Shown: piece after piece, positions 7,912 through 44,725 of the stretch
How the letters are laid out: every line of letters begins with the position of its first letter
Position numbering within the stretch: position 1 is the first letter of the stretch
Source of the DNA: an uncultured Flavobacteriales bacterium
GTDB taxonomy: Bacteria > Bacteroidota > Bacteroidia > CAIKAF01
Direction of reading: 5' to 3'
Assembly (NCBI GenBank): GCA_903825395.1
Contig: CAIKAF010000004.1
Span: 5,728-69,727 of the forward strand
Length of the DNA stretch: 64,000 nt
The notes under the pieces: generated by a model
Seen by the model: the letters and a program-made list of their open reading frames with translations, nothing else
What the model was told of the DNA's origin: nothing
The model's database searches: none
Made by a program: the position numbers and the translations under genes

Positions 7912-8055
7912 GGGCGGCAACCGGGCTTTCCGGGCTACTCCGCGGCCAAAAGCGGGCCGGGCAGGGCCAGCGCAGTAGCTCCTCACGTCGCTCTGCCCTG
8001 GCCCGCCCGGCAACCGCTTTCGGCCTTGCGGGGTAGCCTCGTCAATCCCTGCCGC
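7912..8055 (-). repeat. Structured ~143-bp dispersed hairpin element, copy 1 (Flavo-1-like)
   Basis: Minus strand GCGGCAGGGATTGA-CG-A-GGCTAC...GCGAC-GTGA-GGAGC...GTAGCC-CG-GAAAGCCCG...CCGCCC. Confidence 0.9.
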
Positions 8056-8155
8056 AAGCGGAGTTGTACCTATCAATCAACCTAAATTCATCTGAATGGC
8101 CGGAATGGCCCCTTTCAAGACCAAAATCCCTCTGCCAAACCAAAGCGCAGCGGCT

Positions 8156-8938
8156 CTAGCCCATCGAATAATAAATCACCAACGAGCCCACAGCAATCCG
8201 ATACCAACCAAACCAATAAAAACCGTATTTGGTTAAGTATTGAATAAACCCCCGAATGGCCAAAGCGGCCACCAAAAAGGCAATGATGCTTCCAACCAAC
8301 AACAAGGTCAGATTGCTGGCATTAAACAGTTCCGGATGCTCCCCCCACAAATCCCAAGTGCTTTTCGCCGTGGCCCCAAACATGGTGGGCACCGCCAAAA
8401 AAAATGAAAATTCTGCAGCTTGCTTTCTTCCAAACCCCTGCGTTAATCCCCCAATAATGGTGGCAGCCGAACGGCTGACCCCCGGAACCATAGCCAATAC
8501 CTGAAAGCAACCAATGATAAACGCCTTGACCGATGACATGTTTTTCGCAGGCTCCTCGGATGTTTTTAAAAACCACTTGTCCACATTAACCAATACAAAT
8601 CCTCCCAGCAACAGCATACAGCCAATGATAAATGTAGATTCTAAAAACTCATCAATCAGACTTTTAAACAACACCCCAAACACCACCGCAGGAAAAAAGG
8701 CCAGCATTAAATTCCGATAAAAAGGAATTGGATTTGATGTCAAAAACCGCTTTCGGTACAACACCAAAACCGATAAAATAGCGCCCAGCTGAATGGCTAT
8801 TTCAAACAGCTTTACCCAGGAATCCTCGTGAATTCCCATGGCAGCAGAAACCAAAACCATGTGGCCTGTGGAAGATACCGGCAAAAACTCAGTTAGCCCC
8901 TCAACAATAGCAATTACAATAGCTTGCCAAAGTTCCAT
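8156..8938 (-). CDS. uppP: Undecaprenyl-diphosphate phosphatase
   Basis: VEGLTEFLPVSSTGH, PGVSRSAATI, AAEFSFFLAVP. Confidence 0.96.
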   Translation of the reverse strand: MELWQAIVIAIVEGLTEFLPVSSTGHMVLVSAAMGIHEDSWVKLFEIAIQLGAILSVLVLYRKRFLTSNPIPFYRNLMLAFFPAVVFGVLFKSLIDEFLESTFIIGCMLLLGGFVLVNVDKWFLKTSEEPAKNMSSVKAFIIGCFQVLAMVPGVSRSAATIIGGLTQGFGRKQAAEFSFFLAVPTMFGATAKSTWDLWGEHPELFNASNLTLLLVGSIIAFLVAALAIRGFIQYLTKYGFYWFGWYRIAVGSLVIYYSMG

Positions 8939-8941
8939 GCA

Positions 8942-9184
8942 TTAGTTTTTGAACCGCTTCATGATTCCAAAACCAAAAACGGTAAATCCGGCTAAGATCA
9001 ATAAGGGTGCTACCGTTAACCGCTGTGAACTGAAAAGGTCCTCGCTAAATTCGTTGGGATTGTCCGTTCCTCCGCCACTCAAGGCAATAAAACCCCCAAT
9101 CAGCATAGCAATCCCAAGCAACATCAACACATAATTCATTCTGTGAAAATTCAGACCTGTAGGAGCTTCTTTGGATGTTGACAT
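8942..9184 (-). CDS. DUF3098 family membrane protein
   Basis: Two TM segments, LSGGG...F...RLTVAP; usual ftsX-DUF3098-uppP synteny. Confidence 0.8.
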   Translation of the reverse strand: MSTSKEAPTGLNFHRMNYVLMLLGIAMLIGGFIALSGGGTDNPNEFSEDLFSSQRLTVAPLLILAGFTVFGFGIMKRFKN

Positions 9185-9228
9185 AGCGTTAAATTCAAAA
9201 GGTTGAGTTCAAAGATAACCCAATCTTA

Positions 9229-10113: not shown

Positions 10114-10243
10114 AGTTCAAAGGTCTGCTCTAGTTTCCATTTCTGCAAGACCATCAAGGTTTCCCAATTAACAACGGGTTGTTAACGCACAATTTTCAAA
10201 TCTATTGAATGCCCTTTCTGACGAATACAGCGGGCATCCAGAC

Positions 10244-11284
10244 TTAAATGTCCCCCAAATTCCACACCAAAGCCAATTTGCCCTGCCGCTCACCACGGGC
10301 AAAGGCCAACATGGTTGACTCAAAATCGGCTACAGAAACTGCCGTGGCCAAGGGCGGACGCAAATACCCATTTTGGGCGCGCTCAGCCATGGTTTTAAGT
10401 CCCTTCAACAGCAATTCTGGACGCTCACGGCCTACATGCAGCATGTTGAGCGTAGCGATGGAACGCGATGCCAGAAGCATAGTGATTGGATTGTAAATCC
10501 CCGAATTCCAAATCATTAAAGCATCACGAATCAAGGATTTACGGCCTGAGCGAACGGCGGCACCATACGACAACAGCACTCCGCCCGGCCGCAAGCGCTT
10601 GTATCCCTGAGCCAAATGAAGTCCGGCCAAGGGGTCGAAAATTCGGTCAAACTTTTGGTCGGCAGAAATCTGGGTCCACCAAGGCTGTTCTGACCTGTTC
10701 AAAACAGCAACCTGCCCCGGAAATTCTTCCGACAAAGCCTGAAGTTTTTCGGGGTTTCGACTGCTAAACCAAACTCGGGCACCCTGTTGTATCGAGTGTT
10801 CCATTAAAGCCCGACCAACGGCACCGGCGGCAGAGTGCACCAAAACCTGATCGCCGGGCTGAACACTTGTCAGAACCTCCGACAAATACCAGGCGGTCAC
10901 ATAGGCTGTAACCAAGGCACAAGCTTGCGGGGAAGAAAGCTGGGTTGGAGCCATTACCACCTGCGATGCAGGAAGGTCAATCATGGAGGAAAATCCGCCG
11001 AAAGGCGTAAAGGCCATGATGCGTTGATGCAGCATTTCAGCCGAAACTCCTTCTCCTATGGCCTGAATGCTTCCCACAACCTCGTAACCGGGAACAAAAG
11101 GGGTTTTGGGAGCGTCCCCATACAACCCTTGCATCATCAAGGCATCGGCGAAATTAATGCCCGAGGCTTCAACCGCAACGCGCACATACCCGGGAGCAGG
11201 CAAAGGGGGTAGCATTCCGGTATTCAATTCCCAAACAGGCAAGGCTGTGTCTGCCTGCACCAAACACCATTGTTTCATTTCCAT
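10244..11284 (-). CDS. MDR-family NADPH:quinone oxidoreductase (VAT-1-like)
   Basis: GINFAD...PFVPGYEVVG; VLVHSAAGAVG nucleotide-binding motif. Confidence 0.85.
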   Translation of the reverse strand: MEMKQWCLVQADTALPVWELNTGMLPPLPAPGYVRVAVEASGINFADALMMQGLYGDAPKTPFVPGYEVVGSIQAIGEGVSAEMLHQRIMAFTPFGGFSSMIDLPASQVVMAPTQLSSPQACALVTAYVTAWYLSEVLTSVQPGDQVLVHSAAGAVGRALMEHSIQQGARVWFSSRNPEKLQALSEEFPGQVAVLNRSEQPWWTQISADQKFDRIFDPLAGLHLAQGYKRLRPGGVLLSYGAAVRSGRKSLIRDALMIWNSGIYNPITMLLASRSIATLNMLHVGRERPELLLKGLKTMAERAQNGYLRPPLATAVSVADFESTMLAFARGERQGKLALVWNLGDI

Positions 11285-11438
11285 GCTTCAAAGGTGTTGA
11301 AAAATTAGGGATTTGATACCAAGGCCAGCCCCGCTACCAATACCTTTGACAACCCATACATCAGCACATTAACACCTTTTTTGCATGAATAGGCCATGCA
11401 AAACGAAATTCATTGCTGTACCTTTGAAAAAAAAGACC

Positions 11439-11849
11439 ATGAAAACGCTATTGACTTTACTTTTTCCTGCCCTGTTGAGTGTAAGTACTGCCGTTGCTCA
11501 AATGGAACTGGGTCCGAAATTTGATGCCAAAGAAATGGAAGTGGACTTTAATTCGGTAAAAACCGGAGGCAAGCACGATGCGGTTTTTGTTTACAAAAAT
11601 GCCGGCAATCAGCCCCTGTTGATTACACAAGCCGAAGGTTCTTGTGGCTGTACTGTTCCTGATTATCCAAAAGGCCCCTTGAAACCCGGTGGAACCGGTC
11701 AGATTAAAATCACCTATGATGCCAAAGCAAAAGGCCCTTTCAATAAGACGGTTACCTTAACCACCAATGAAGTAGAGGGAAAAAACAGCGATGGGCAAAC
11801 CATTTATAAAAAACACGTCATTCAGGTCAGCGGAAACGTGGTAGATTAA
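11439..11849 (+). CDS. DUF1573 domain exported protein
   Basis: ATG 11439, signal peptide, NAGNQPLLI...GSCGCTVP...PGGTGQIKITYD. Confidence 0.88.
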   Translation: MKTLLTLLFPALLSVSTAVAQMELGPKFDAKEMEVDFNSVKTGGKHDAVFVYKNAGNQPLLITQAEGSCGCTVPDYPKGPLKPGGTGQIKITYDAKAKGPFNKTVTLTTNEVEGKNSDGQTIYKKHVIQVSGNVVD

Positions 11850-11911
11850 GCCGGGTTGCCGTTCAGCATTGCGGCAGAATACCTACTTTTGATGCCTAAT
11901 CTAAACATGCT

Positions 11912-13111: not shown

Positions 13112-13164
13112 GGCCAATCCAATGTGCTGCAGCTCCTTTAACTTCTAGTCCCCTTTCGGCAGAT

Positions 13165-15285: not shown

Positions 15286-15348
15286 TGCTTAAAGATACGG
15301 CAGGAAACGGAATTCTACCGTTTCGATGCTGATTCGGCAGCCTGATTT

Positions 15349-17798: not shown

Positions 17799-17875
17799 AA
17801 CTACGAATGTACAACGTCCGAAAAGAGCTTGCAAAAATCTTAACGAAACAATAACAACTTGGCGAGTTTTTAGGT

Positions 17876-18723: not shown

Positions 18724-18738
18724 TTAAAGTTTAATGCG

Positions 18739-19607: not shown

Positions 19608-19750
19608 GCGGCAGGGATTGAAGAGGCTAGAACGCAAGGGCAGCAGGCCGGGCCACGCCAGCAAAAAAGAGCGACCTTGGAAGCTCCTTTTTTGCGGCTG
19701 TGGCCGGGCCTGCTGACTGCGGACTAGCCCTGAAAGCCCGCAGTCCGCCC
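19608..19750 (+). repeat. Structured ~143-bp dispersed hairpin element, copy 2
   Basis: GCGGCAGGGATTGA-AG-A-GGCTAG...GCGAC-CTTG-GAAGC...CTAGCC-CT-GAAAGCCCG...CCGCCC. Confidence 0.9.
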
Positions 19751-24715: not shown

Positions 24716-24834
24716 GAGATAAAAATAAAGAATGTTTTTTGGAGTACCGCCGCGGTGGTGTGCGGGCAGATAAAGGTAACATTTGGCTAATAATTGGATT
24801 AAATTCGTACCTTGCATTAAATAACCGTTTAACC

Positions 24835-27016: not shown

Positions 27017-27158
27017 GCGGCAGGGATTGAATGGGGTAGCACGCAAGGCCATAAGCCCCCAGCCCGCGCGCAGCGGAGGCGACCTTGGGAGCCCCCGCAA
27101 TGCCGCTGGGCTGGTGGCTTATGGACGCGGACTACCCATGAAAGCCCGTTTGCCGCCC
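27017..27158 (+). repeat. Structured ~143-bp dispersed hairpin element, copy 3
   Basis: GCGGCAGGGATTGA-AT-G-GGGTAG...GCGAC-CTTG-GGAGC...CTACCC-AT-GAAAGCCCG...CCGCCC. Confidence 0.9.
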
Positions 27159-31859: not shown

Positions 31860-31948
<89 letters not shown>

Positions 31949-33892: not shown

Positions 33893-34089
33893 GCTCCAAA
33901 CCTACGCAGAAAACCGGCATTGAAGCCGAGTCTTGGCCGGAATTTGTTAAAAGTCCTGAAAAACAATCCTGTTGTGTATATTTGTAGTCTGTTTCAAAAA
34001 CTCCGGCCTATAGAACACCTATATCCCACCAAACAGTTGTATTTCTTCCCTTTGGGGAATTTTTTAGACGTATAGGATATTTTTGCCGG

Positions 34090-34683: not shown

Positions 34684-37600
34684 TTGTACAAAGGGTGAGG
34701 TTGTTCTGTGCACATACCAAATGGTTTAAGCAAAAGGCGCTTCAGGCCTGCCTTATGTTTGCTTTTGTCGTATTTACATCAACAGCTCTGGCTCAGGTGG
34801 ATACAAATAACCATCGGTTTATGGGCGGGGTTGGTGCCACCGAAGAAGAAGTTTCGTACGATCCGGATTTAAAGCAATATCTAATTGTAAAAAAGATTGG
34901 AGGGGCTGAGATTTCGAGGCAATATTTATCGGAAAAGGAATACCGCACCCGTCAATCTGCCCGTGAAATCATGGATTATTGGAAGAAAAAAGAGAAGGAA
35001 AAATCCTCGGGCAAAGAAAGCAATTCCCTGATTCCAAAAATAAATTTGGCCAACATCCCGGCTGGACTTGGGAAAATTGATATTCGGGCCACGGGCTCAG
35101 CGGAATTGATTATGGGGATTCGAGTAAACACGAATCAGAACCCAAGCATTCCACTGGCGCAACGCACCATTACCACCTTCCAGTTTGACCAGAACATTCA
35201 GGTGAATGTTACGGGGTCCATTGGAGACAAAATCAAGTTGGGAACGAATTTCAATACGGAGGCCGTATTTGCTTTTGAAAACCAGTTGGATTTAAAGTAC
35301 GAAGGCGGTGAGGATGATATTCTTCAGCTTCTTGAATTTGGCAATGTCAACATGGGATTGACCGGTCAGCTTATTCAAGGCTCCTCCTCCTTGTTTGGGG
35401 TGAAAAACAAATTAAAATTTGGACGATGGGAAATTACCAGCGTATTTAGTCAGCAGCAAGGTCAGCGCCAAAACATCACCGTTCAGGGTGGAGCTCAGGT
35501 AACAGAATTTGATTTGCCGGCAGCAAAATATGAAGCCAACCGGCACTATTTTTTGGGTGATTACTTTAAAAACAACTACGACCAAGCCAATCAAACCTTA
35601 CCCTACATAACCTCGCCCGTAAATATTACGCGCATTGAAGTTTGGGTAACCAACCGCATAAATGCCACTGAAAATATTCGGAATGTAGTGGCCATTTTAC
35701 CTTTGGGAGAGAACCTTCCCAATCCTTCCGGTTACCCTTCAAATGGAGTCAATGGTTTCGACCCTGCAGGCTTGGCTCCCCAGGTGCGTGATATCACCTC
35801 GCAATACTTGTTCAACCAACTGAACAATGGGACTCAGATTGAGAAACTTACTAATGCCCGCCTGCTTGCCCAAAATGAATACACCTTTCACCCCCTACTT
35901 GGCTACATTTCCCTAAACCAGGCTCTGAATGCGGATGAAGTTTTGGCCGTATCGTACGAATTTACGGCAGGGGGACAGACCTACAAAGTGGGGGAATTCT
36001 CTCAGGATTTATCTAGCCCCTCCGCTCTGGTAGTTAAGTTATTAAAATCTTCCAATCTCGACATCAATGAGGCCAACTGGCCCTGGATGATGAAAAACAT
36101 ATATTCCATCGGAGGATTTAATATCGGCCAACAGGACTTCACCTTAAATATATTGTATCAAGATACAGAAACCGGGGTCAAAGTAAACTACTTTCCAAAT
36201 GCGCCCGGAGTGAGTGGTACACCTCTGCTTCAGTTGTTTAATTTGGACCGGCTGAATCCACAAGGCGACCAACAAAAAGATGGGTTTTTTGACTTTTTAG
36301 AGGGCAAAACCATTATCGCTCAAAATGGGCGGATTATTTTCCCTGTTGCTGAGCCTTTTTCAACCCGATATTTGGCTCAGATATTTACCAAAGCCAATCA
36401 ATCCAATCCCGGCATAGATATTCAAGCGATGACGGAACGCTATGCCTTTGATCAGTTGTACGAAAATATTCAGGAGCTGGCCGAATTAAACCAAGAGAAA
36501 AACAGGTTTTATTTGGGAGGCAGCTATAAAGGTGCCAGTGGATCGGAGATTAGCCTGAATGCCTTTAACGTTCCACAAGGTTCGGTTACCGTTACCGCGG
36601 GGGGGCAAACCCTTCTTGAAAACACCCATTATACGGTGGATTATGCCATTGGCCGGGTTCGTATCATCGATGATGGCATTTTAAGTTCTGGACTTCCCAT
36701 CAACATCTCGATGGAGAACAATGCCACATTCAACATACAGCAGAAGCGGCTGATGGGCACCCACGTAGATTACAAACTCAGTAAAAATTTAGTTGCCGGG
36801 GCCACCATCATGAATTTGAGTGAGCTGCCCTTAACCCAAAAAATTGACATTGGAAATGAGCCGGTGAACAACACCATTTGGGGTGTGGATCTAAACTTCA
36901 GCCGAGAATTGCCCTTTGTTACCCGTCTAGTAGATAAAATTCCGGGGATAGACACCAAGGCCCCCTCCTTGTTGACCTTCAATGGTGAATTTGCCCATTT
37001 GATTCCTGGATTTAATGGGGTGATTGATGCCAATGGGGAGAACGGGGTTTCTTACATTGATGACTTTGAGGCGGCGGAAACGGCCATTGAGATTAAAAGC
37101 CCGCTTCAGTGGAAAATTGGCTCGGTTCCTCAAGACAATCCCGCCTTTCCAAACGGTGGATTTTTCGATGATTTGCGGTATGGGTTTAATCGGGCCAAAC
37201 TGACCTGGTTCACCTTAGACCCGCTTTTCTTCCGGCAAAACACCCAAACTCCGGCCAACGTTTCCAATGACCCTTTGATGCGCGCCAACAACTACCTGCG
37301 TGAGGTGCGCCCGATGGAGGTTTTTCCGGGGTTTCAACCCAATTATACTCAGCAACAAATCAATCAGCAAGTATTTGATATCCATTTTTACCCGGGAGAA
37401 AGGGGCCCATATAATTTTGACATCAATAATTTTGATGAAAGCATTTCGGACCGGATTGCCTTAAAAAATCTCAAATCCAACTTTGGTTTGTTGATGCGGC
37501 GGATGGAAACCACCAACTGGGATGCCGCCAATATTGCCTACATTGAATTTTGGATGATGGACCCCTACCAAGCCAATGACTTGAATCAATTAAAGGAATG

Positions 37601-40600
37601 GGATGTGGGTACTCCTGGAGCCACCAACAGAAACTTATTGCCTGGGGGCGGCGGAGATTTGCTGCTTCAAGTGGGTAATTTGAATGAAGATTTTTTGCGC
37701 GATGGTCGCATGAGTTACGAAAATGGTCTCCCCACGCCTGAGGAGTCCAGACCAACCATTGAAACCGCTTGGGGTAAAATTCCATTGCTACAACCCATAA
37801 ATCAGAACTTTGACAATTTACCCGCCAACCGTGACCTTCAAGATGTAGGTTACGATGGGTTGAATGACCAAGAGGAAGGCAGTTTTTTTCAGGCCTTTAT
37901 GAACGATGTGGAGCTTAAATTTGCAGGAAATCCGTCGGCGCTGCAGGATTTAAGAGATGACCCGGCGGGTGACAACTTCAGGCATTATGCCGGATTAAGC
38001 TACGACAACAGCACCAACATTCCCGGAGAGAACTACATTCACAACCGATACAAGCATTTTCTTGGCCCCGACGGGAATAGTCCGGCAGAAAACAACACCG
38101 AGGCCTATGGTGTAGTTCCGAATAGCGAGGACATTAATGTCAACTATACCTTAGACCAACCTGAAAGTTATTATCAATACCGCATTAGTCTAAGGCAAAA
38201 TGACCTGGACGATATCGGAGAAAACTTTATTACAGACATTTTAAATACCACCGTTTCGGTACCTGGACCTTCTGGCGGCACCATCAATAAACCGGTGAAG
38301 TGGATTCAGTTCCGAGTACCCATTTATGCGGAACAACGGGAACGCTTTGGCAACATCTCAGATTTCCGTTCCATTCGTTTTATGCGAATGGCCTTGAAGG
38401 AATTTGATGACGATGTGTTTTTGCGCATGGCCACCATGCAATTGGTTCGCTCCGACTGGCGGGTATTTCAGGGCCTAATTGCCGATGTAGCCGATATTTG
38501 GCAGGAAGGTGCTGACTTCAACTCTACCACGGTAAATATTGAAGAAAATACACAAAAGGCTCCATTCCCCTATGTACTGCCTCCGGGCATTACCCGAGAA
38601 ATTGATCCAGCAAACCCCCAGCTTCAGCAACTGAATGAACAGTCGTTGGTGCTGAACGCCTGCGACCTTAAAGATGGGGAAGGAAAGGCCGTCTTCAAAA
38701 ACTCGGAACTGGATTTAAGGGCATATAGATATGTACGTATGAATACTCACTTGGAGTCGCGCGACAACTCCATTTTAGATAGCAACGACGTATCGATTTT
38801 TGTTCGCTTGGGAATGGACGCCTCAGAAAATTATTATGAGTACGAAATTCCTTTAAAGCCCTCGGACGTTTCCATTCAGCCGAATGCTGCCAGCGGAGAC
38901 CCCAACAAAGACTTTGCCTATCGGGAAAACGTATGGCCTGCCGATAATTTGGTGAGCATTGAGCTAAAGCTATTGGCCGATTTGAAACTGCGGAGGAATA
39001 CTGAAGGGGAAAACCCCAATTTAATTTACAGCGATCTGATTGATGGGGCCCGCATTTCGGTTCGAGGAAATCCAAACTTAGCCAATGTTCGAACCATTTT
39101 AATTGGAGTAAGAAACCCCTCCAAGAAAAATAACCCTTGGCAAACAGGGCAACCACAGCCGGACGATGGAATGGCGAAATGCGTTCAAGTTTGGGTGAAT
39201 GAACTTCGTGCCACCGACTACTTTGAATCGGGAGGTTGGGCCGCACTGGCTCGCACTACACTTGATCTATCAGATTTTGGTCAAGTTGGCCTTTCTGTCG
39301 GTACCACTCGTTTTGGTTTTGGTTCTATCGAACAACGGCCTCAAGACAGAAGCCGCGAAAACACCACCAATCTGGATTTAACCACCAAATTTGAATTGGG
39401 CAAGTTTTTTGGAAAAGAGGCCGGGGTAAGTATTCCCGTATTTTTCGGGTATTCAGGCAGCATTGCCAGTCCTCAATTTAATCCCTTAGATCCAGACATT
39501 CTGTTCACCGATGCCCTTGGAGCCTTACCCACTGATTTTTCACGTGACTCCCTGAGCCGTTTGGTGGAAGAAGTAACCGACCGAAAAAGTTTCAACATCA
39601 ACAATATGCGAAAGCAGAGGGGGAAAGATGCTGGCAAACCAAAGCTGTATGATATATCCAACTTCTCGGCCTCCTATTCTTATACCGAGGAATTGTTTCG
39701 CGATACCAAAACAGAATTCAACAACACCTTTCAGCACAAAGCCAGCCTAACCTATGGATTTAGCCCCACCGTAACCTATTGGGAACCCTTTAAACGGAGT
39801 AAAAAACTCAAATCGCCCTGGTTGAAATTTGTTAAAGATTTCAATTTAAGTTTCATGCCCAAACGGCTTGGCTTTAGTGCAAATGTACTTCGAGACTGGA
39901 ATGAGTTTAAGCTTAGAAACACGACCCGTTACGATTTATTGATTGAAACTACCTATCGGAAAAACTTTACTTGGACACGCAATTATGAGTTCCAATACAA
40001 TCCAACCCGAGCCCTAACATTAACCTTCTCTGCCACCAACAATTCCAGAATTGATGAGCCCGAAATGCCCTTAGATAGCCTTGTGCGCCCTCGTACCTCA
40101 TTCTTAGGTCGCAATACCCGTTATACGCATCGTTTTGACGCCAACTATTCCGTTCCAATCAATAAATTTCCGTGGTTTGATTGGGTAAATGTAACCGCCG
40201 GATATGGTGGTGATTTCTCTTGGACGGCGAGCAATCTAGAGCAAACTCCTCAGTCCGGACAATTCACATTGGGCCGCTGGGGGAATGTGGTGCAAAACAA
40301 TCAAACCTTAAAATTGAATGGGCAATTCAATATGAATACCCTGTACCGGAAATCAGACTATTTGAAAAAACTTCACGCTACTCCACAGAAGAACAAAGAA
40401 AAAGATGACGAGCCCATCACCGATTCCAGCAAAGTCAAAATCAAAATCGTTAGCTGGAAATCTCCAAAACCTTTGTCGTTTAAAAAGGATAGGAAGCGTA
40501 CCATCAAGCATCAGTTAAAAACCGAAGATGTAGAAGTGGTCGTGCTGGCACAGAACGGCGACACGGTTAAAGGGAAAGTCGAAGTGGTAGATGACCGTCG

Positions 40601-42080
40601 GATTCGCTTCATAGCTGCCTCTGATGCCAGTGGTGCTGCAGTTTCTATAACAGGAAAACGCATTCGGAAAAAAATGGATTGGGGTGTCATTCCCAACACC
40701 TTAGTAAAAGTGGCCACCGGATTTAAAAACATTTCCGTTAGCTATACCCAAACCAATGGAACTGTACTGCCTGGATACGCTGCAGGTACTGATTTGCTGG
40801 GAATGAATTTGGGCGGAGCCTCCATCGGACCTGATTTTGCTTTCGGGCGGCAATACGACGACCAAGATTTACAAAACAAAATTGTGCAGGACGCCTGGTT
40901 GGTTCGGGATTCTACTCTGAACCAAATGTTTATGCGTACCCATTCCTCAACGCTGAGCGGGAATGCCACCTATGAGCCATTCCGAGGATTCCGAATAACC
41001 TTCAATGCCGACCGCACCTATTCAGAAAACTACCAAACGAACTATCGGTATGTGCCCAGTGAAAACGACTTCCGAACCCAAAACCCCTTGACAATGGGTA
41101 ATTTTAGCATGTCGTACATGACCTTGGGTTCCTTCTTTGATGGCTTAGGGCCTAATTTCAGTTCGCCCACCTTCGACCGCATGCTTCAACACCGCAGTAT
41201 ACTTTCTAAACGGCTTGCCGAACAAAACCCAAACAGCAATGTAAATCCGAACGCCATCTATCAACTTGGGTTTGGAGGCAACCAAACCGATGTATTGTAT
41301 TATTCATTTATTAGTGCATATACCGGCGTTGATGCAGAAGCACAGTCGTTAAACATGTTCCCTCAAATTCCCATTCCCAATTGGAGATTGCAGTTTGATG
41401 GATTGAAAAACATACCGTTTTTCGCAGACCGATTCAAAAACATTGTACTAACGCACAGCTACAAATCGACCTTGGGCGTATCGGGATTCCAATCCAACAA
41501 CGTTTACAACAACTTGAGTTCCGCCTATTGGCAATCCAATCCATTTGGCTACAGTGAATTTGGGGCAGATGGCAACTACATCAGCCGTTTCTTCTTGAAT
41601 TCCGTTAGCATTCAAGAGCAGTTCCAGCCCCTCATCAAGGTTGACATGACCTTCAAAAACGAAGTTCAAACAGCCGTTGAAGTAAAAAGCAGCCGAAATG
41701 TTAGCCTAAACTTCCCGAACAATCAGGTAACCGAAACCAACTCGTTCGAGGTTAGCGTAGGCGCCGGCTACAAAGTGGCCAAGTTTAAATTGCCTTTCCT
41801 CATTAACGGAAGGCGCTTAGAAAATGGATTTAATGTACGGGCAGATATTGGCTGGCGCGACAATTCTACCATCATCCGTAAAATCCAAGAAGAAGTACAG
41901 CAAATCACCGCTGGTCAACAACAAATCACCATCAAGATTTTCGCGGAATACGAACTGAGCAAATCCATCACCGCTCGGGCATTTGTAGACCATATGGGTA
42001 CAAATCCATTCGTATCAAATCAGTTTCCGAACAGCACCACCAACGGGGGCATTAGCGTACGCTTTACCTTGCAGCCATAA
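34653..42080 (+). CDS. sprA: T9SS outer-membrane translocon SprA/Sov (true start probably 34695-34755)
   Basis: About 2450 aa; FDQNIQVNVTGSIGDK, YEANRHYFL, SYIDDFE, DFRSIRFMRM, VWVNELR; ruvA-sprA synteny. Confidence 0.93.
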   Translation: MDSKSIKLFVVVQRVRLFCAHTKWFKQKALQACLMFAFVVFTSTALAQVDTNNHRFMGGVGATEEEVSYDPDLKQYLIVKKIGGAEISRQYLSEKEYRTRQSAREIMDYWKKKEKEKSSGKESNSLIPKINLANIPAGLGKIDIRATGSAELIMGIRVNTNQNPSIPLAQRTITTFQFDQNIQVNVTGSIGDKIKLGTNFNTEAVFAFENQLDLKYEGGEDDILQLLEFGNVNMGLTGQLIQGSSSLFGVKNKLKFGRWEITSVFSQQQGQRQNITVQGGAQVTEFDLPAAKYEANRHYFLGDYFKNNYDQANQTLPYITSPVNITRIEVWVTNRINATENIRNVVAILPLGENLPNPSGYPSNGVNGFDPAGLAPQVRDITSQYLFNQLNNGTQIEKLTNARLLAQNEYTFHPLLGYISLNQALNADEVLAVSYEFTAGGQTYKVGEFSQDLSSPSALVVKLLKSSNLDINEANWPWMMKNIYSIGGFNIGQQDFTLNILYQDTETGVKVNYFPNAPGVSGTPLLQLFNLDRLNPQGDQQKDGFFDFLEGKTIIAQNGRIIFPVAEPFSTRYLAQIFTKANQSNPGIDIQAMTERYAFDQLYENIQELAELNQEKNRFYLGGSYKGASGSEISLNAFNVPQGSVTVTAGGQTLLENTHYTVDYAIGRVRIIDDGILSSGLPINISMENNATFNIQQKRLMGTHVDYKLSKNLVAGATIMNLSELPLTQKIDIGNEPVNNTIWGVDLNFSRELPFVTRLVDKIPGIDTKAPSLLTFNGEFAHLIPGFNGVIDANGENGVSYIDDFEAAETAIEIKSPLQWKIGSVPQDNPAFPNGGFFDDLRYGFNRAKLTWFTLDPLFFRQNTQTPANVSNDPLMRANNYLREVRPMEVFPGFQPNYTQQQINQQVFDIHFYPGERGPYNFDINNFDESISDRIALKNLKSNFGLLMRRMETTNWDAANIAYIEFWMMDPYQANDLNQLKEWDVGTPGATNRNLLPGGGGDLLLQVGNLNEDFLRDGRMSYENGLPTPEESRPTIETAWGKIPLLQPINQNFDNLPANRDLQDVGYDGLNDQEEGSFFQAFMNDVELKFAGNPSALQDLRDDPAGDNFRHYAGLSYDNSTNIPGENYIHNRYKHFLGPDGNSPAENNTEAYGVVPNSEDINVNYTLDQPESYYQYRISLRQNDLDDIGENFITDILNTTVSVPGPSGGTINKPVKWIQFRVPIYAEQRERFGNISDFRSIRFMRMALKEFDDDVFLRMATMQLVRSDWRVFQGLIADVADIWQEGADFNSTTVNIEENTQKAPFPYVLPPGITREIDPANPQLQQLNEQSLVLNACDLKDGEGKAVFKNSELDLRAYRYVRMNTHLESRDNSILDSNDVSIFVRLGMDASENYYEYEIPLKPSDVSIQPNAASGDPNKDFAYRENVWPADNLVSIELKLLADLKLRRNTEGENPNLIYSDLIDGARISVRGNPNLANVRTILIGVRNPSKKNNPWQTGQPQPDDGMAKCVQVWVNELRATDYFESGGWAALARTTLDLSDFGQVGLSVGTTRFGFGSIEQRPQDRSRENTTNLDLTTKFELGKFFGKEAGVSIPVFFGYSGSIASPQFNPLDPDILFTDALGALPTDFSRDSLSRLVEEVTDRKSFNINNMRKQRGKDAGKPKLYDISNFSASYSYTEELFRDTKTEFNNTFQHKASLTYGFSPTVTYWEPFKRSKKLKSPWLKFVKDFNLSFMPKRLGFSANVLRDWNEFKLRNTTRYDLLIETTYRKNFTWTRNYEFQYNPTRALTLTFSATNNSRIDEPEMPLDSLVRPRTSFLGRNTRYTHRFDANYSVPINKFPWFDWVNVTAGYGGDFSWTASNLEQTPQSGQFTLGRWGNVVQNNQTLKLNGQFNMNTLYRKSDYLKKLHATPQKNKEKDDEPITDSSKVKIKIVSWKSPKPLSFKKDRKRTIKHQLKTEDVEVVVLAQNGDTVKGKVEVVDDRRIRFIAASDASGAAVSITGKRIRKKMDWGVIPNTLVKVATGFKNISVSYTQTNGTVLPGYAAGTDLLGMNLGGASIGPDFAFGRQYDDQDLQNKIVQDAWLVRDSTLNQMFMRTHSSTLSGNATYEPFRGFRITFNADRTYSENYQTNYRYVPSENDFRTQNPLTMGNFSMSYMTLGSFFDGLGPNFSSPTFDRMLQHRSILSKRLAEQNPNSNVNPNAIYQLGFGGNQTDVLYYSFISAYTGVDAEAQSLNMFPQIPIPNWRLQFDGLKNIPFFADRFKNIVLTHSYKSTLGVSGFQSNNVYNNLSSAYWQSNPFGYSEFGADGNYISRFFLNSVSIQEQFQPLIKVDMTFKNEVQTAVEVKSSRNVSLNFPNNQVTETNSFEVSVGAGYKVAKFKLPFLINGRRLENGFNVRADIGWRDNSTIIRKIQEEVQQITAGQQQITIKIFAEYELSKSITARAFVDHMGTNPFVSNQFPNSTTNGGISVRFTLQP

Positions 42081-42928
42081 AGCCAATTATTGAGGCGTAT
42101 ACAGAGAGAATTTTATGGCTTCCCGTTTAATCTCACTGACCCAATTTCGACCCTTTTTTTTAAGGAAAATGGAGGTGTTCAAGGGCCAGATTAAACCTGC
42201 CTTTTCATAAAATTCATAGTTTACATGTAGATTTTTGTTCGCCCCCCCTTATTCTCAACCGTTGAGTAAAACTTAAAAAATCATTTTTTTGAAATTACCC
42301 AAACTGCCTTCTGCCTTTATTTAGCACGCCCTTTGGAAATTTTAATCCATGAAAATGTCTGTTCCTAAACCAAAAAAATGGCCTTCCACCTTGAAACTTT
42401 GATAATCCTCGCGTAAATTCGTAGTTCATCGATGAAACGTTAAAAAGGAACACTTCGTCACGTATTTGGGGTGGCGAAGAATAGTTAGGGCACTTTTTGG
42501 AGTGAACTACGGGAATCTGGGGAAGTTGAAAAATGGAACCAGGTTCGCCTTGGGGAGTCTCAGAAAAGCTTTCTGAATCGTGCAAAGGAAACTTTGCTGG
42601 TGCGGGAAGCGGGAGCATGGGAATGAGACTGGATGAACTGGCAAATTCATCCTTTTTACAGGAGGGAAAATTGGAAGGGGATTTGAGGAGGAGGGGAAAG
42701 AGGAGGGGGTCAAATAAAATTTCAAGTTTCCTTTACGTCGGGGAAAACGTTGGCGACCCGAAGGGCGCGAGGCAACCTTTTTTGGGTAAAGCTTAAGCGC
42801 AGCCTTCAGGAAATCGCTATTGGCGGCAACCTCATTTCCCCAAAAAGGGAAGCCCGACCCCATTCCCCCCAAGCCCCCCAACACCTCCAACACAAAGTTC
42901 AACCCACCATAAAAGCCAGGAGTAGGCC

Positions 42929-43070
42929 GCGGCAGGGATTGAACAGGGTAGCACGCAGGGGGGCGGAGCCTGGCCCGCGCGGCGCGGAGGCGACTTTAGG
43001 AGCCCCCGCAAGCCCGCTGGGCCAGCCTCCCGCCCCACGCGGACTACCCGTGAAAGCCCGTCAGCCGCCC
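42929..43070 (+). repeat. Structured ~143-bp dispersed hairpin element, copy 4
   Basis: GCGGCAGGGATTGA-AC-A-GGGTAG...GCGAC-TTTA-GGAGC...CTACCC-GT-GAAAGCCCG...CCGCCC. Confidence 0.9.
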
Positions 43071-43156
43071 AAATCACCCCATTCCCACACCGCTTGAACC
43101 GCGAAAATCTGCTCAGCTCTGCCATTAAATCCATACCTTTGTGCAAAATTATCCTC

Positions 43157-44557
43157 ATGAATTCCTTTCAGGTTGTTGTTATTGGATCGGGGCCTGGCGG
43201 CTACGTTGCGGCAATCCGTTGCGCCCAATTGGGGCTCAAAACTGCGCTGATTGAAAAATATTCCACCTTAGGCGGAACCTGCCTGAATGTGGGGTGCATC
43301 CCATCTAAAGCGCTGCTAGACAGCTCGGAACATTATTACAATGCCAGCCATACCTTTGCCGAGCACGGAATTGAACTGTCGAACGTGTCGGTGAATTTCG
43401 GACAAATGATCGCCCGGAAAAATGAGGTGGTGGCCCAAACTTGTGCCGGTGTAGCGGGTCTGATGAAAAAAAATGGAGTCACCGTATTTCATGGCATGGG
43501 TTCTTTCAAATCCAAAGGCATCATTCAGGTGCAGGGCAGCGATGGCAGCACCGAATTGAGCTATGAAAAAGCCATTATTGCGACGGGCTCTAAGCCGTCC
43601 GGCCTTCCCGGCATTGTGCCCGACAAAAAACGCATCATCACTTCGACCGAGGCCTTGAATCTGAAAGAAATTCCCTCGCATTTGCTGGTCATTGGCGGCG
43701 GAGTCATTGGATTGGAAATGGGTTCGGTGTATGCGCGACTGGGCTCAAAGCTCAGCATTGTAGAGTTCGCCGACCGACTCATTCCCGGTTTTGACAGTGC
43801 CATGAGCAAAGATTTGGCTCGGGTAATGAAAAAACTGGGGGCCGACATTTACACTGAAACTCGGGTAACTTCCGTAAAAAATAAGGGCAAACAAGTGGTG
43901 GTGACGGCGGAAAACAAAAAGGGGGAGACCTTCGAGTGGAATGTGCCGTACTGCTTGGTTTCCGTGGGCCGCAAGCCGTACACCGAGGGATTGAATTTGA
44001 GCGCCTTGGGGCTCGCCACCGATGAGCGGGGGCGGATTCCGGTGAATGACCACTTGCAAACGGCAGATGCTTCCGTATATGCCATTGGAGACGTGGTGCG
44101 GGGTGCGATGCTGGCGCACAAGGCCGAAGAAGAGGGCATGTTGGTGGCTGAAATCATTGCGGGGCAGCAGCCGCACATCAATTATTTGCTCATTCCGAAC
44201 GTGGTGTACACCTGGCCTGAAGTGGCTTCGGTGGGGCATACGGAAGAGGAGTTGAAGTCGGCAGGTCGGGCGTACAAAGTGGGCAGTTTCCCCTTCCGAG
44301 CCAGTGGTCGGGCGCGCGCAAGCATGGATTTAGACGGTCAGGTTAAAGTACTGGCTGACAAAGAGAATGACGAAATTTTGGGGGTTCATATCATTGGTCC
44401 TCGGGCGGCCGACATGATTGCTGAGGCCGTAGTGGCCATGGAATATCGGGCTACGGCCGAGGACATTGCACGGATGAGCCATGCGCACCCCACCTATACC
44501 GAGTCGTTCCGCGAGGCTTGCTTGGCGGCCACAGAGAATCGGGCGATTCACATTTAA
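43157..44557 (+). CDS. lpdA: Dihydrolipoyl dehydrogenase
   Basis: GSGPGGY, GGTCLNVGCIPSK, GGGVIGLE, HAHPT; ATG 43157. Confidence 0.97.
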   Translation: MNSFQVVVIGSGPGGYVAAIRCAQLGLKTALIEKYSTLGGTCLNVGCIPSKALLDSSEHYYNASHTFAEHGIELSNVSVNFGQMIARKNEVVAQTCAGVAGLMKKNGVTVFHGMGSFKSKGIIQVQGSDGSTELSYEKAIIATGSKPSGLPGIVPDKKRIITSTEALNLKEIPSHLLVIGGGVIGLEMGSVYARLGSKLSIVEFADRLIPGFDSAMSKDLARVMKKLGADIYTETRVTSVKNKGKQVVVTAENKKGETFEWNVPYCLVSVGRKPYTEGLNLSALGLATDERGRIPVNDHLQTADASVYAIGDVVRGAMLAHKAEEEGMLVAEIIAGQQPHINYLLIPNVVYTWPEVASVGHTEEELKSAGRAYKVGSFPFRASGRARASMDLDGQVKVLADKENDEILGVHIIGPRAADMIAEAVVAMEYRATAEDIARMSHAHPTYTESFREACLAATENRAIHI

Positions 44558-44583
44558 ATTAAACATTCAGGGGGTATTTAGTG

Positions 44584-44725
44584 GGGCGGCGGACGGGCTT
44601 TCAGGGCTAATCCGCGGTTGCCGGCGGCTGTCCCAGCGGGCTTGCGGTGGCTCCCAAGGTCGCCTCCGCGCCACGCGGGCCAGGCGCCGCCACCCTTGCG
44701 GGTTAGCCTCTTCAATCCCTGCCGC
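44584..44725 (-). repeat. Structured ~143-bp dispersed hairpin element, copy 5
   Basis: Minus strand GCGGCAGGGATTGA-AG-A-GGCTAA...GCGAC-CTTG-GGAGC...TTAGCC-CT-GAAAGCCCG...CCGCCC. Confidence 0.9.

What the first reader, a model, noticed from the sequence alone, without database searches (positions are those of the whole stretch)
7912..44725. Five dispersed 142-144 nt hairpin elements with fixed length and base-pair covariation
Seen: copies at 7912-8055(-), 19608-19750(+), 27017-27158(+), 42929-43070(+) and 44584-44725(-). Shared frame: GCGGCAGGGAUUGA-NN-R-GGSUAN-NN-CGCA...variable stem...RGC-GA-C-NNNN-G-RA-GCY...GCGGA-NUASCC-NN-GAAAGCCCG...CCGCCC, then an A-rich run. The NN/NN pair covaries (CG/CG, AG/CU, AU/AU, AC/GU, AG/CU). 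The next helix covaries (GGCUAC/GUAGCC, GGCUAG/CUAGCC, GGGUAG/CUACCC, GGCUAA/UUAGCC). The middle stem differs strongly in sequence yet stays paired, and total length is kept within 2 nt. Tandem GA/GA juxtapositions and GUGA or CUUG tetraloops occur on this strand only, which suggests the functional strand. Copies lie between convergent, divergent and tandem genes, so a riboswitch role is unlikely. From memory, the ends resemble the Flavo-1 motif of unknown function. Inference: selection maintains a rod that holds a conserved base and a conserved apical loop at a fixed distance, as expected for a multicopy ncRNA family or a non-autonomous ssDNA/RNA mobile element.
Basis: partly seen in the sequence, partly recalled or inferred. 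Interest (0 to 1): 0.8.

Follow-up and report, generated by a model that had tools for sequence, protein, structure and literature searches.

The report
GC-rich hairpin repeat, Flavo-1 relative
The five hairpins belong to a family of about 220 copies of a 142-base GC-rich palindromic repeat in this small Bacteroidota genome; it is related at its base to the orphan "Flavo-1" motif, behaves like structured repeat DNA more than like an RNA gene, and is unusually well conserved where it sits.

Summary
All five copies are real. The genome (2.63 Mb, 46% G+C) holds about 220 full-length copies of 139-145 nt and ~71% G+C. Covariation is very strong: 93.6% of cells paired against 71% in shuffles, and 46 of 53 pairs change on both sides. 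Pairing is almost purely Watson-Crick (G·U 1.3%, A·C 0.8%; tRNA control 10.5%), and both strands fold equally well, which indicates a DNA palindrome, not an RNA helix.

No copy reaches any Rfam threshold. The basal module (GGGAUUGA…GAAAGCCC) is shared with genuine Flavo-1 (RF01705) hits, and divergent copies match both models.

- Neighbouring copies point in opposite directions (132 against 57; 44 against 2 within 5 kb).
- There is no target duplication. The 5' flank prefers GCCY, which mimics the element's GCCC end.
- Orthologous copies persist across species with compensation in place.
- Copies evolve more slowly than coding DNA (1.3% against 2.8%).
- No mobilising enzyme tracks the family.

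Most likely this is a long-stem, genus-restricted branch of the Flavo-1 repeat superfamily, REPIN-like and copied through a folded single strand. It is now mostly resident and constrained. This scan already noted the family in other windows of the same genome.

The parts
7912..8055 (-). Copy 1 of the 142-nt hairpin repeat (144 nt). Its 3' end lies 20 nt after the stop codon of the 833-aa ORF 5391-7892.
   Evidence: R1 116.7 bits, full length 1-142. An orthologous copy in the same orientation is present in G006 (L101 4001-4143). None was found in G001, where the genes on its two sides lie 14 kb apart in opposite orientation on one contig.
19608..19750 (+). Copy 2 (143 nt), in a divergent intergenic region, with a distinctive A6/T6 apical stem.
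   Evidence: R1 138.6 bits. Orthologous copies at the same place and in the same orientation in G001 and G006 are 83-85% identical, where the neighbouring genes are ~76% identical. 6 of the 10 changed pairs are double Watson-Crick changes.
27017..27158 (+). Copy 3 (142 nt), between convergent ORFs 24739-26895(+) and 27217-27987(-).
   Evidence: R1 161.1 bits, the best hit in the genome.
42929..43070 (+). Copy 4 (142 nt), 24 nt upstream of the pyridine-nucleotide disulphide oxidoreductase gene 43094-44557. It forms an inverted pair with copy 5 around that gene.
   Evidence: R1 136.2 bits. Identical in G003. The G001 and G006 orthologous loci have no copy within 1.5 kb. G005 has a 158-nt variant at this position and in this orientation. 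Pfam for the gene.
44584..44725 (-). Copy 5 (142 nt). Its 3' end lies 27 nt after the stop codon of gene 43094-44557.
   Evidence: R1 148.2 bits. Present in G003. G002 has a 158-nt variant at this position and in this orientation.

Best explanation
The five hairpins are members of a genus-restricted, high-copy family of structured palindromic DNA repeats: about 220 copies, or 1.2% of the genome. The family is a long-stem branch of the repeat superfamily that includes the Rfam motif Flavo-1.

Shown:
- The copied unit is exactly the 142-nt hairpin GCGGC...GCCGCCC.
- Pairing is kept as Watson-Crick complementarity on both strands.
- The conserved parts are asymmetric internal loops at the base and apex, held a fixed stem length apart.
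- Copies have no target-site duplication.
- Copies prefer a 5' flank ending GCCY, which mimics the element's own GCCC end.
- Close neighbours are almost never in direct orientation.
- Resident copies persist at orthologous loci across species, with compensation in place, and change more slowly than coding DNA.

Inferred:
- Copies were made through a folded single strand of DNA that a structure-specific enzyme recognises at the conserved base and apex. The enzyme would be of the HUH/Y1 type (REP/RAYT or IS200/IS605-like), cutting after GCCY in the left flank and after GCCC at the element's right end.
- The family is now copying slowly or not at all in this lineage.
- Direct-oriented neighbours have been purged because recombination between them deletes the DNA in between, whereas inverted neighbours only flip it.
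- The surviving copies are under host-level constraint for a role not yet identified.
For: Copy number and unit:
- R1 finds at least 150 full-length hits, which is the scoring cap.
- Iterated nhmmer finds 240 hits, 220 of them near full length.
- Among the 50 youngest pairs (>=93% identical), similarity drops to background immediately outside the element.

DNA-level pairing:
- 92% of cells are Watson-Crick; G·U+U·G 87 and A·C+C·A 52 of 6,641 cells.
- Mean RNA folding energy is -86.2 on the + strand and -85.4 on the - strand; + is better in 114 of 220 copies.
- The tRNA control has 10.5% G·U.

No target-site duplication above control.

Flank tag:
- GCCC, GCCT or GCTT precedes 105 of 220 copies, against ~0.45% genome-wide for each tetramer.
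- 197 of 220 copies end in GCCC.

Orientation:
- Neighbours are opposite in 132 and same in 57 pairs (P=5e-8).
- 44 against 2 within 5 kb, and 21 against 0 within 3 kb.
- There is no orientation bias relative to genes in tandem regions (51 against 51).

Copying after speciation: 81 of 220 copies have a paralog at >=90% identity (maximum 97.2%, none identical), whereas orthologs across species are 83-85% identical.

Persistence and constraint:
- Copy 2 is kept in three species, with 6 of 10 changed pairs doubly compensated.
- 9 of 9 assessable copies are shared with G003.
- Copies differ at 17 of 1,281 positions, genes at 858 of 30,679 and other intergenic DNA at 173 of 2,780; Fisher P=8e-4 and 5e-14.

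Link to Flavo-1:
- The basal module is shared with hits above the Rfam cut-off (L064, L062).
- L012 and L014 match both R1 (58-63 bits) and RF01705 (24-31 bits).
- Canonical Flavo-1 is itself a multicopy repeat of lineage-specific length, 70-119 nt.
- It has the same T-rich / tag ... tag / A-run layout and low G·U.

Restriction: 6 of 6 congeners carry the family, 2 of 18 genomes of other genera in the family (1-2 weak matches each), and 0 of 16 genomes of other families.
Against: No mobilising enzyme is identified.
- The RAYT-like gene with a copy 158 nt upstream (G000 C26; YIHQNP motif as in TnpA_REP subclass 2.6 of PMC6006769) has a close ortholog only in G003.
- G006 has a high copy number and is 99% complete, yet it has no homolog at E<=1e-5.
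- G001 and G006 have no PF01797 match at E<=0.001.
- RAYT-like genes and Flavo-1 do not co-occur in the 16 other-family genomes: both 2, Flavo-1 only 5, RAYT-like only 4, neither 5.

No clean empty site was recovered. The one candidate is a synteny breakpoint.

There is no replichore-style orientation bias of the kind expected for IS200/IS605-type insertion into the lagging-strand template.

Purifying constraint on resident copies is not expected of purely selfish DNA and points to a host role.

Some features are typical of RNA motifs:
- tandem G·A juxtapositions and CUUG/GNRA apical loops;
- purine-purine mismatches on this strand outnumber pyrimidine-pyrimidine ones, 295 against 81.

The low divergence between G000 and G003 copies could be slightly inflated if the assemblies blur repeats.
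Confidence: 0.55

Rival explanations
1. The hairpins work as RNA. Either they are stand-alone small RNAs (as Rfam files Flavo-1), or, more plausibly, they are very stable hairpins in the 3' untranslated ends of neighbouring transcripts that block exonucleases or stop read-through in both directions. Watson-Crick-only pairing would then follow because the hairpin must fold in transcripts from either strand.
For: - Copies are enriched between convergent genes: 74 of 213 copies, and 27% of convergent intergenic regions hold a copy against 7% of tandem ones.
- The element's 3' end lies a median of 22 nt from the stop codon of a gene reading into it, 80 of 125 within 30 nt.
- Resident copies are under purifying constraint, with compensation in place.
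- There are CUUG/GNRA loops and tandem G·A.
- Contigs of family members occur in metatranscriptome assemblies, though DNA carry-over is not excluded.
Against: - G·U is 1.3-1.4% against 10.5% in the tRNA control.
- There is no shared promoter.
- On both strands the T-rich run comes before the hairpin and the A-rich run after it, the reverse of an intrinsic terminator.
- Divergent (promoter-only) regions are not depleted: 37 of 213, 17%, against 14% of intergenic regions.
- In Flavobacterium psychrophilum, Flavo-1 hits lay sense or antisense to transcribed regions and many were untranscribed (PMC9723704; passage read).
- An RNA role does not explain why direct-oriented neighbours are avoided.
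Confidence: 0.2
2. The copies are host-used DNA sites. They would be binding or extrusion sites for a chromosomal protein (as REP/BIME clusters bind gyrase and IHF in E. coli; recalled), or substrates of a recombinase that flips the DNA between inverted copies. The family would be kept by the host and would not be copying itself.
For: - In-place constraint is stronger than on coding DNA.
- The conserved base and apex sit at a fixed distance, as if both were read by one protein.
- Close neighbours are almost strictly inverted.
- Copies are enriched where convergent transcription meets.
- Several rearrangement junctions between this genome and G001/G006 coincide with a copy. By my reading, this holds for 4 of 6 adjacency changes against G006 in a 20-kb stretch.
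Against: - No partner protein is identified.
- One inversion in the same stretch (window ~15348-17860 against G001/G006) has no copy at its junction in any of the three genomes.
- Paralogs more alike than cross-species orthologs show that copies were made at new places.
- The junction count is small and its events are not independent.
Confidence: 0.17
3. The family is a retro-mobilised, SINE-like element. The hairpin would be transcribed, given an A-rich tail, reverse-transcribed and inserted at T-rich sites.
For: - An A-rich, G-poor run of variable sequence follows the element and is not inherited between young copies.
- The upstream flank is T-rich.
Against: - There is no target-site duplication.
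- There are no 5'-truncated copies: 220 of 240 hits are near full length.
- It does not explain the conserved GCCY 5' flank.
- No reverse transcriptase was searched for or linked.
- G·U is not used.
Confidence: 0.03

Closest known systems
Flavo-1 RNA motif (Rfam RF01705; Weinberg et al. 2010, PMC2864571: I saw only its Table 1 row)
   Same: - The basal module is shared: three G-C pairs, an A·G mismatch, UU/AA pairs, a GA-rich internal loop and then a short helix. Ours reads GGGAUUGA-NN...NN-GAAAGCCC; the Rfam consensus reads ccGAUuGaAGc...gCGgAaAGCgg.
- Some genuine hits have an identical base (L064) or the same extra outer helix with an asymmetric loop (L062).
- Both are multicopy, dispersed and found on both strands, with lineage-specific lengths.
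- Both have a T-rich 5' flank, a short tag repeated at the 3' end and an A-run after it, and both have low G·U.
- Both occur in the same bacterial class.
- Function is unknown for both.
   Different: - No copy reaches the Rfam cut-off of 42 bits, and none of the scored candidates reached even E<=10.
- It is 142 nt against ~76 nt.
- The stem is ~71% G+C, where canonical Flavo-1 has an A/U-rich stem.
- The second module differs: GGSUAN/NUASCC plus NN/GA here, GGAAAUCC/GAUUGUAGC in Flavo-1.
- It has a conserved apical module (RGCGAC-loop-GGAGCY) that Flavo-1 lacks.
- The tags differ: GCCY/GCCC here, TAGC/TAGC in G083.
REPINs and REP/BIME elements with RAYT (TnpA_REP) transposases (Bertels & Rainey 2011, PMC3116915, abstract seen; Quentin et al. 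2018, PMC6006769, passages and supplement 2 part 5 read)
   Same: - Both are high-copy extragenic palindromic repeats that fold into a hairpin and persist for long periods with vertical inheritance.
- Both cluster in alternating orientation and are enriched at gene 3' ends.
- Both lack a target duplication.
- A RAYT-like gene with the subclass 2.6 Tyr motif (YIHQNP) has a copy 158 nt upstream in this genome, and so does a 44%-identical homolog in G001.
- Subclass 2.6 is described as mostly from Bacteroidetes, with 'atypical secondary structures' that also occur elsewhere in the genome.
   Different: - There is no GT[AG]G tag.
- The unit is one 142-nt rod with conserved asymmetric loops and apex, not a doublet of short REPs.
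- The RAYT-like gene does not track the family.
- The subclass 2.6 structures listed in that paper's table, in the part I read, do not contain the GATTGA...GAAAGC signature.
IS200/IS605-family ends and their non-autonomous derivatives (mechanism recalled; abstract of PMC6006769 seen)
   Same: - Both rely on recognition of a folded single strand.
- Both insert without duplication, 3' of a short target that resembles the element's own 3' cleavage site. Here that is GCCY in the flank and GCCC at the end.
   Different: - Those elements carry two different subterminal hairpins and show an orientation bias with replication.
- Here the whole element is one hairpin, and orientation alternates locally.
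Integron attC sites (recalled, not tested)
   Same: - Both are imperfect palindromes of up to ~140 nt.
- In both, the stem sequence varies while pairing, unpaired bases and the foot are conserved.
- attC sites act as one folded DNA strand.
   Different: - attC sites sit in same-orientation arrays next to an integron integrase. Here copies are scattered among housekeeping genes in alternating orientation.
- Only two full tyrosine-recombinase genes are present. One has a copy ~120 nt before the domain match (L073 939-1080 against a match starting at 1501), which may be chance at one copy per ~12 kb.

Membership tests
Flavo-1 (Rfam RF01705) | Scores at or above the family's gathering threshold (42 bits) with the Rfam covariance model | tested here: not met
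   No hit in the window at gathering. No Flavo-1 hit at E<=10 around copy 1. In the whole genome there were 0 hits over the cut-off; the best was 27.6 bits, at a place that is not a family member. Of the 8 weak hits, only 1 overlaps any of my 240 nhmmer hits. Only 150 of 453 first-look candidates were scored.
Flavo-1 (Rfam RF01705) | Basal module: G-C helix, A·G, UU/AA, GA-rich internal loop, 2-bp helix (ccGAUuGaAGc ... gCGgAaAGCgg) | tested here: met
   Family consensus GGGAUUGA-NN ... NN-GAAAGCCC, compared with the Rfam consensus and with hits above the cut-off in L064, L062 and L063.
Flavo-1 (Rfam RF01705) | Second module and short A/U-rich stem (GGAAAUCC-UUUU...AAAA-GAUUGUAGC), total ~76 nt | tested here: not met
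   Here there is a GGSUAN/NUASCC helix, a CGC/GCG helix, a ~45-nt-per-arm G+C-rich stem and a conserved apex; the total is 139-145 nt.
Flavo-1 (Rfam RF01705) | Intermediate sequences that link the two families | tested here: met
   L012 and L014 (same genome) match R1 full length at 57.6 and 63.4 bits and RF01705 full length at 30.7 and 24.1 bits. Genuine Flavo-1 hits range from 70 to 119 nt by lineage.
REPIN / REP with RAYT | A cognate RAYT gene flanked by the repeat and co-occurring with it | tested here: inconclusive
   There is a copy 158 nt upstream of a RAYT-like gene in G000 and ~450 nt upstream of a 44%-identical homolog in G001. G006 has no homolog, and G001 and G006 have no PF01797 match.
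REPIN / REP with RAYT | 5' GT[AG]G tetranucleotide at the foot of the hairpin | tested here: not met
   The 5' flank tetramers are GCCC 55, GCCT 28 and GCTT 22 of 220, and the element starts GCGGC.
MITE of a DDE transposon | Target-site duplication and terminal inverted repeats | tested here: not met
   No direct repeat of 3-8 nt at any of 100 offset combinations exceeded the mismatched-flank control (best 10 of 220 against 8 of 220).
Stand-alone small RNA gene | Own promoter and terminator, wobble pairs on the sense strand, discrete transcript | tested here: inconclusive
   Promoter: TAnnTTTG in 13 of 220 upstream regions. No U-run after the hairpin. G·U 1.3-1.4% against 10.5% in tRNAs. Transcript: only assembled metatranscriptome contigs were available, which cannot show ends or levels.
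Integron attC array | Same-orientation array of sites separated by cassettes, next to an integron integrase | tested here: not met
   Copies are dispersed at a median spacing of 9.8 kb, and neighbours are mostly inverted.

The most novel reading that the evidence does not exclude
The resident copies are not just relics of a selfish repeat. They would be a host-kept, transposase-independent system of about 220 rigid 142-nt rods, each maintained by selection at its own locus, with compensation in place and change slower than in coding DNA. They would have to fold on both strands, which explains the Watson-Crick-only pairing, and they would act at the ends of transcription units. Possible roles are two-way barriers to read-through or RNA decay, or extruded DNA structures that relieve or mark supercoiling between converging genes. 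The rule that neighbours must be inverted would then be part of how the chromosome tolerates them. If so, the whole Flavo-1 superfamily, filed for 15 years as an orphan 'sRNA', would be a new class of functional structured DNA/RNA punctuation in Bacteroidota.
Probability: 0.25. Interest if true: 0.75.

Novelty: new variant of a known kind. Interest (0 to 1): 0.55.

Why it matters
Flavo-1 has been an orphan motif since 2010 and is filed as an sRNA with no known role. This genome has an extreme branch of the same superfamily, making up 1.2% of a streamlined 2.6-Mb genome, and its size allows tests that the 76-nt form does not.

Those tests indicate a DNA-level palindrome with a strand-specific recognition surface, a flank tag like that of single-strand (HUH-type) transposition, strict avoidance of direct-oriented neighbours, and purifying constraint in place. 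Each of these is a concrete, testable hypothesis about what Flavo-1-type elements are.

There are practical consequences too. These repeats break short-read assemblies of such genomes: many contigs of the congener G003 end inside a copy. They also sit at several rearrangement junctions, and standard Rfam annotation misses them.

Tried and rejected
- Rfam at gathering and at permissive thresholds gave only tRNAs, plus miRNA-precursor noise on the hairpin.
- Helix extension into the flanks: a copy's own flanks pair no better than mismatched flanks (-6.8 against -7.0 kcal/mol, P=0.71). The flank signal is therefore composition or consensus. The test is weak for low-complexity T and A runs.
- Target-site duplication: none.
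- Bacteroidota-type promoter upstream: not general (13 of 220).
- RAYT as mobiliser: adjacency in two genomes but no co-occurrence.
- Tyrosine recombinases: only two full genes. One has a copy nearby, which may be chance.
- Clean empty site: the candidate at window ~11284-11385 turned out to be a synteny breakpoint with an unrelated left flank.
- Recent gain or loss against G003: none in 9 of 9 assessable copies. The tenth fell in a part of the query with no G003 match.
- RNA evidence: four runs kept as assembled contigs were laid. The contigs touching the elements are short and of low depth, and they run on into other copies. That says nothing about transcription, ends or strand.
- Pattern scan of viral contigs: 114 stretches matched the two half-sites, but 0 of the 80 listed loci matched R1, so these are chance matches.
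12 of the 80 listed loci matched R1, all in records labelled Bacteroidetes, Bacteroidia, Bacteroidales, Bacteroidota or Flavobacterium. The hits in other phyla are chance.
- A sequence-only HMM alignment scrambled the variable stem and was replaced by the Infernal alignment.
- The first ORF-based gene context was contaminated by spurious ORFs inside the G+C-rich repeats and was redone with the repeats masked.
- NCBIfam classification of the Y1 proteins failed on my wrong coordinates and was not repeated.
- Not searched: reverse transcriptase, TnpB/IscB, IS110 and IS91 families.

Full report
**1. The observation**

The five stretches align over their whole length with 78% mean column identity. 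They fold into one long rod of 53 pairs, 23 of which already show compensatory changes among the five. A covariance model built from them (R1) recovers exactly these five places in the window and no others, at 116.7-161.1 bits.

**2. Size of the family**

The window lies in a genome of 2,625,067 bases in 33 contigs with 46.4% G+C.

- R1 finds at least 150 full-length matches, which is the scoring cap, out of 477 first-look candidates.
- nhmmer iterated once finds 240 hits, 220 of them near full length.
- Lengths: 142 nt in 94 copies, 143 in 66, 141 in 32, 144 in 20, 140 in 6, and 139 and 145 in one each.
- Strands: 118 copies on one and 102 on the other.
- At ~71% G+C, the copies make up about 31 kb, or 1.2% of the genome.

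**3. Structure and covariation**

I used an Infernal alignment of 126 copies. This is a subset: the copies in the window plus 40 copy-dense stretches that I fetched.

| Measure | Observed | Shuffled control |
|---|---|---|
| Cells forming a standard pair | 93.6% of 6,641 | 71.1% (0 of 500 shuffles reach it) |
| Same, with 3' partners slid by 1-3 columns | n/a | 35-49% |
| Pairs with changes on both sides | 46 of 53 | 35.2 |
| Cells with a double change | 1,301 | 371 |

The alignment was fitted to the model's structure, which favours it, but the margin is very large.

The conserved parts are the base (GCGGC-A-GGG-A-UU-GA-NN ... NN-GA-AA-G-CCC-NNNN-GCCGC-CC) and the apex (RGCGAC-loop-GGAGCY in 123 of 126 copies). 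Each arm between them varies in length by only ±1-2 nt.

**4. RNA or DNA?**

- Pair types: G-C 47.9%, C-G 27.0%, U-A 10.3%, A-U 7.0%. G·U+U·G total 87 cells (1.3%) and A·C+C·A total 52 (0.8%).
- Mean RNA folding energy is -86.2 kcal/mol on the given strand and -85.4 on the complement. The given strand is the more stable in 114 of 220 copies.
- In single-sequence folds, G·U makes up 1.4% of pairs on the given strand and 5.2% on the complement. This genome's 36 tRNAs, as a control, give 10.5% on the sense strand and 4.8% on the antisense.

So the helices are kept as Watson-Crick complementarity that holds on both strands. That is what a DNA palindrome shows and what RNA helices normally do not.

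Some asymmetry remains. The conserved internal loops are purine-rich on this strand. Among mismatched cells, purine-purine pairs (GG 95, GA 86, AG 74, AA 40) outnumber pyrimidine-pyrimidine ones (CU 24, UU 23, CC 17, UC 17). The reverse strand scores only 32-41 bits with R1. A single strand of this polarity, DNA or RNA, is therefore probably what is recognised.

**5. Flanks and the copied unit**

- Upstream is T/G-rich and ends in S-G-C-C-Y. Downstream begins C/A, followed by an A-rich stretch with G at or below 0.10 for about 20 nt.
- A copy's own flanks pair no better than mismatched flanks.
- Among the 50 pairs of copies that are >=93% identical, identity falls to the random-pair level immediately outside GCGGC...GCCGCCC. 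Only position -3 is raised, 0.76 against 0.47. So the copied unit is the hairpin itself, and the flanks reflect target choice or later selection.
- No target-site duplication is seen.
- GCCC, GCCT or GCTT precedes 105 of 220 copies, while each tetramer has a genome frequency of ~0.45%. The element ends in GCCC in 197 of 220 copies. The match is not copy-specific, so it is not a duplication.
- From general knowledge of IS200/IS605 and related HUH enzymes (recalled), this layout is characteristic of single-strand transposition: insertion 3' of a short target that resembles the element's own 3' cleavage site.

**6. Orientation**

Of 189 neighbouring pairs on the same contig, 132 are in opposite orientation and 57 in the same (binomial P=5e-8).

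| Spacing | Opposite | Same |
|---|---|---|
| Within 10 kb | 77 | 18 |
| Within 5 kb | 44 | 2 |
| Within 3 kb | 21 | 0 |

All 7 pairs closer than 1 kb are head-to-head. Orientation is not tied to gene direction: tandem gene pairs carry 51 copies in each orientation.

The simplest reading (inference) is that direct-oriented neighbours are lost or selected against because recombination between them deletes the DNA in between, whereas inverted neighbours only invert it.

**7. Gene context**

With the repeats masked before ORF calling (a crude greedy ORF call, not a gene finder), 74 copies lie between convergent genes, 102 in tandem regions and 37 between divergent genes. Seven are at contig edges.

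Of all intergenic regions, 271 are convergent, 1,444 tandem and 275 divergent. Convergent regions are therefore enriched, but promoter-side regions are not avoided.

The element's 3' end lies a median of 22 nt from the stop codon of a gene reading towards it (80 of 125 within 30 nt). The 5' end lies a median of 74 nt from such a stop codon. I have no firm explanation for this asymmetry.

**8. Age, turnover and constraint**

- Nearest-paralog identity has a median of 87.5% and a maximum of 97.2%. 81 of 220 copies have a paralog at >=90%, and none is identical.
- Copy 2 is present at the same place and in the same orientation in G001 and G006, where the neighbouring genes are ~76% identical. The copies are 83-85% identical to the window copy and share its unusual A6/T6 apical stem. 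Of the 10 pairs that differ between G000 and G001, 6 are double changes that restore a Watson-Crick pair.
- Copy 1 is kept in G006 and was not found in G001.
- G001 and G006 share a copy 13-14 nt upstream of the ortholog of gene 11385-11849, where this genome has none. Those two copies differ at 3 of 142 positions, while 300 nt on either side are 83% and 93% identical.
- Against the close relative G003, 9 of 9 assessable copies are present.
- In that comparison the copies differ at 17 of 1,281 positions (1.3%), long ORFs at 858 of 30,679 (2.8%) and other intergenic DNA at 173 of 2,780 (6.2%). Fisher P=8e-4 and 5e-14.

In short, copies were still being made after the species split, because paralogs are closer than cross-species orthologs. 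There has been no gain or loss since the split from G003. Resident copies are constrained where they sit. Template-switch correction within a hairpin could produce double changes without selection (recalled mechanism), but it would not lower the overall rate.

**9. Rearrangements**

- In G001 the orthologs of the genes on the two sides of copy 1 lie 14 kb apart in opposite orientation on one contig.
- By my reading, 4 of the 6 adjacency changes against G006 in this 20-kb stretch have a copy at the junction in at least one genome.
- One inversion (window ~15348-17860) has none.
- This is suggestive only. One of the four junctions involves contig ends in G006 and could be an insertion.

**10. 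Distribution**

- R1 matches all 6 other species of the genus. Three match strongly and three more weakly, including 158-nt variants.
- It matches 2 of 18 genomes of other genera in the family (1-2 weak matches each), and 0 of 16 genomes of other families in the class.
- A pattern scan for the two basal half-sites found family members only in records labelled as Bacteroidota (12 of 80 listed loci), and none in 80 listed viral loci.

**11. Relation to Flavo-1**

- RF01705 has no hit above its 42-bit cut-off in this genome, and none at E<=10 on copy 1.
- The Rfam consensus and several hits above the cut-off in other genomes nevertheless carry the same base. L064 reads GGGAUUGAAG...GUAAAGCCCGA. 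L062 has the same outer helix and asymmetric loop.
- Two divergent long-stem repeats of this genome match both models.
- Genuine Flavo-1 is itself multicopy: at least 41 scored hits in two genomes, 31 and 23 in others. Its length is lineage-specific, from 70 to 119 nt.
- In G083 its layout is T-rich, TAGC | hairpin ... TAGC | TCCTGAAAA, and its G·U usage is low.
- Guérin et al. 2021 (PMC9723704; one passage read) report that Flavo-1 hits lie sense or antisense to transcribed regions and that many are not transcribed.

I therefore place the family in a Flavo-1 superfamily, but not in the Rfam family as currently modelled.

**12. Mobiliser**

The genome has three Y1-transposase-like loci.

- The C26 gene (210 aa; HUH DHFH, WQ, YIHQNP) fits the Tyr motif of TnpA_REP subclass 2.6 of Quentin et al. 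2018. That paper describes the subclass as mostly from Bacteroidetes and flanked by atypical structures that recur in the genome. This gene has a copy 158 nt upstream, and a 44%-identical homolog in G001 has one ~450 nt upstream.
- However, G006 has no homolog, and G001 and G006 have no PF01797 match.
- RAYT-like genes and Flavo-1 do not co-occur across 16 other-family genomes.
- That paper's listed subclass 2.6 structures, in the part I read, lack the GATTGA...GAAAGC signature.

No mobiliser is established.

**13. Literature**

Full-text searches for 'Flavo-1' (6 papers), for RAYT/REPIN/Bacteroidetes and for Flavobacteria plus repeat terms found no description of this long-stem family and no assigned function for Flavo-1. 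Supplements of the 2010 paper, which hold the motif's alignment and comments, were not opened.

**14. Earlier notes of this scan**

Four earlier notes describe the same family in other windows of this genome. Three called it REPIN-like, and one called it a long-stem Flavo-1 branch with opposed neighbours. My tests agree with both readings and add the following:

- the Watson-Crick-only pairing with a tRNA control;
- the definition of the copied unit;
- the GCCY/GCCC tag;
- the genome-wide orientation statistics;
- the compensation in place;
- the rate comparison;
- the negative co-occurrence tests for a RAYT.

**15. Verdict**

The feature is real and striking, and is best described as a new long-stem variant of a known but unexplained repeat kind. 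The mechanism remains inferred.

Noticed in passing
window 42360-42825: A separate ~460-bp sequence between the 2475-aa ORF and copy 4 is multicopy in the congeners G003 and G006 (at least 15 places at 80-95% identity). Its ORFs have no Pfam match and it has no Rfam match. In one metatranscriptome assembly, contigs at 42492-42629 have word depths of 50-280, against 2-11 on the neighbouring gene. It may be an abundant small RNA or a small gene.
   Followed up: partly
G000 C23:193449-193570 (L012) and C22:34854-34984 (L014): A second, rarer long-stem repeat type of about 139 nt in the same genome, with a more Flavo-1-like base (CCCCGAUUGCAGCGG...GCGGAAAGCGG). It is matched by both R1 and RF01705 below threshold. 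About 20 weaker nhmmer hits covering only model positions ~9-129 or ~51-129 may belong to such variants.
   Followed up: partly
G000 C5:11035-11382 with flank to ~C5:11850 (L070 1468-2320): A RAYT-like gene (184 aa) with the YIKNNP motif, as in TnpA_REP subclass 2.4. Next to it is a cluster of short palindromic repeats of a different type.
   Followed up: partly
G000 C28:29201-29545: An IS200-type Y1 transposase match (78.4 bits, 154-aa frame) close to a contig end.
   Followed up: no
window ~15348-17860: The block holding ORFs 15349-16368 and 16365-17834 is inverted relative to its right-hand neighbour in both G001 and G006. No hairpin copy lies at that junction in any of the three genomes.
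   Followed up: partly
L128-L167 (G083): Canonical Flavo-1 copies in this distant genome share conserved sequence beyond the 3' end of the Rfam model (TCCTRAAAA) and an A-rich patch at -10 to -8. The repeated unit there is therefore longer than the 76-nt model.
   Followed up: partly
window 34653-42080: A very long ORF (2,475 aa) lies just upstream of the region with copies 4 and 5. I did not examine it.
   Followed up: no
G003 contig ends (table): Many contigs of the congener G003 begin or end inside a copy of the hairpin repeat or of the 460-bp repeat, so these repeats fragment short-read assemblies.
   Followed up: no
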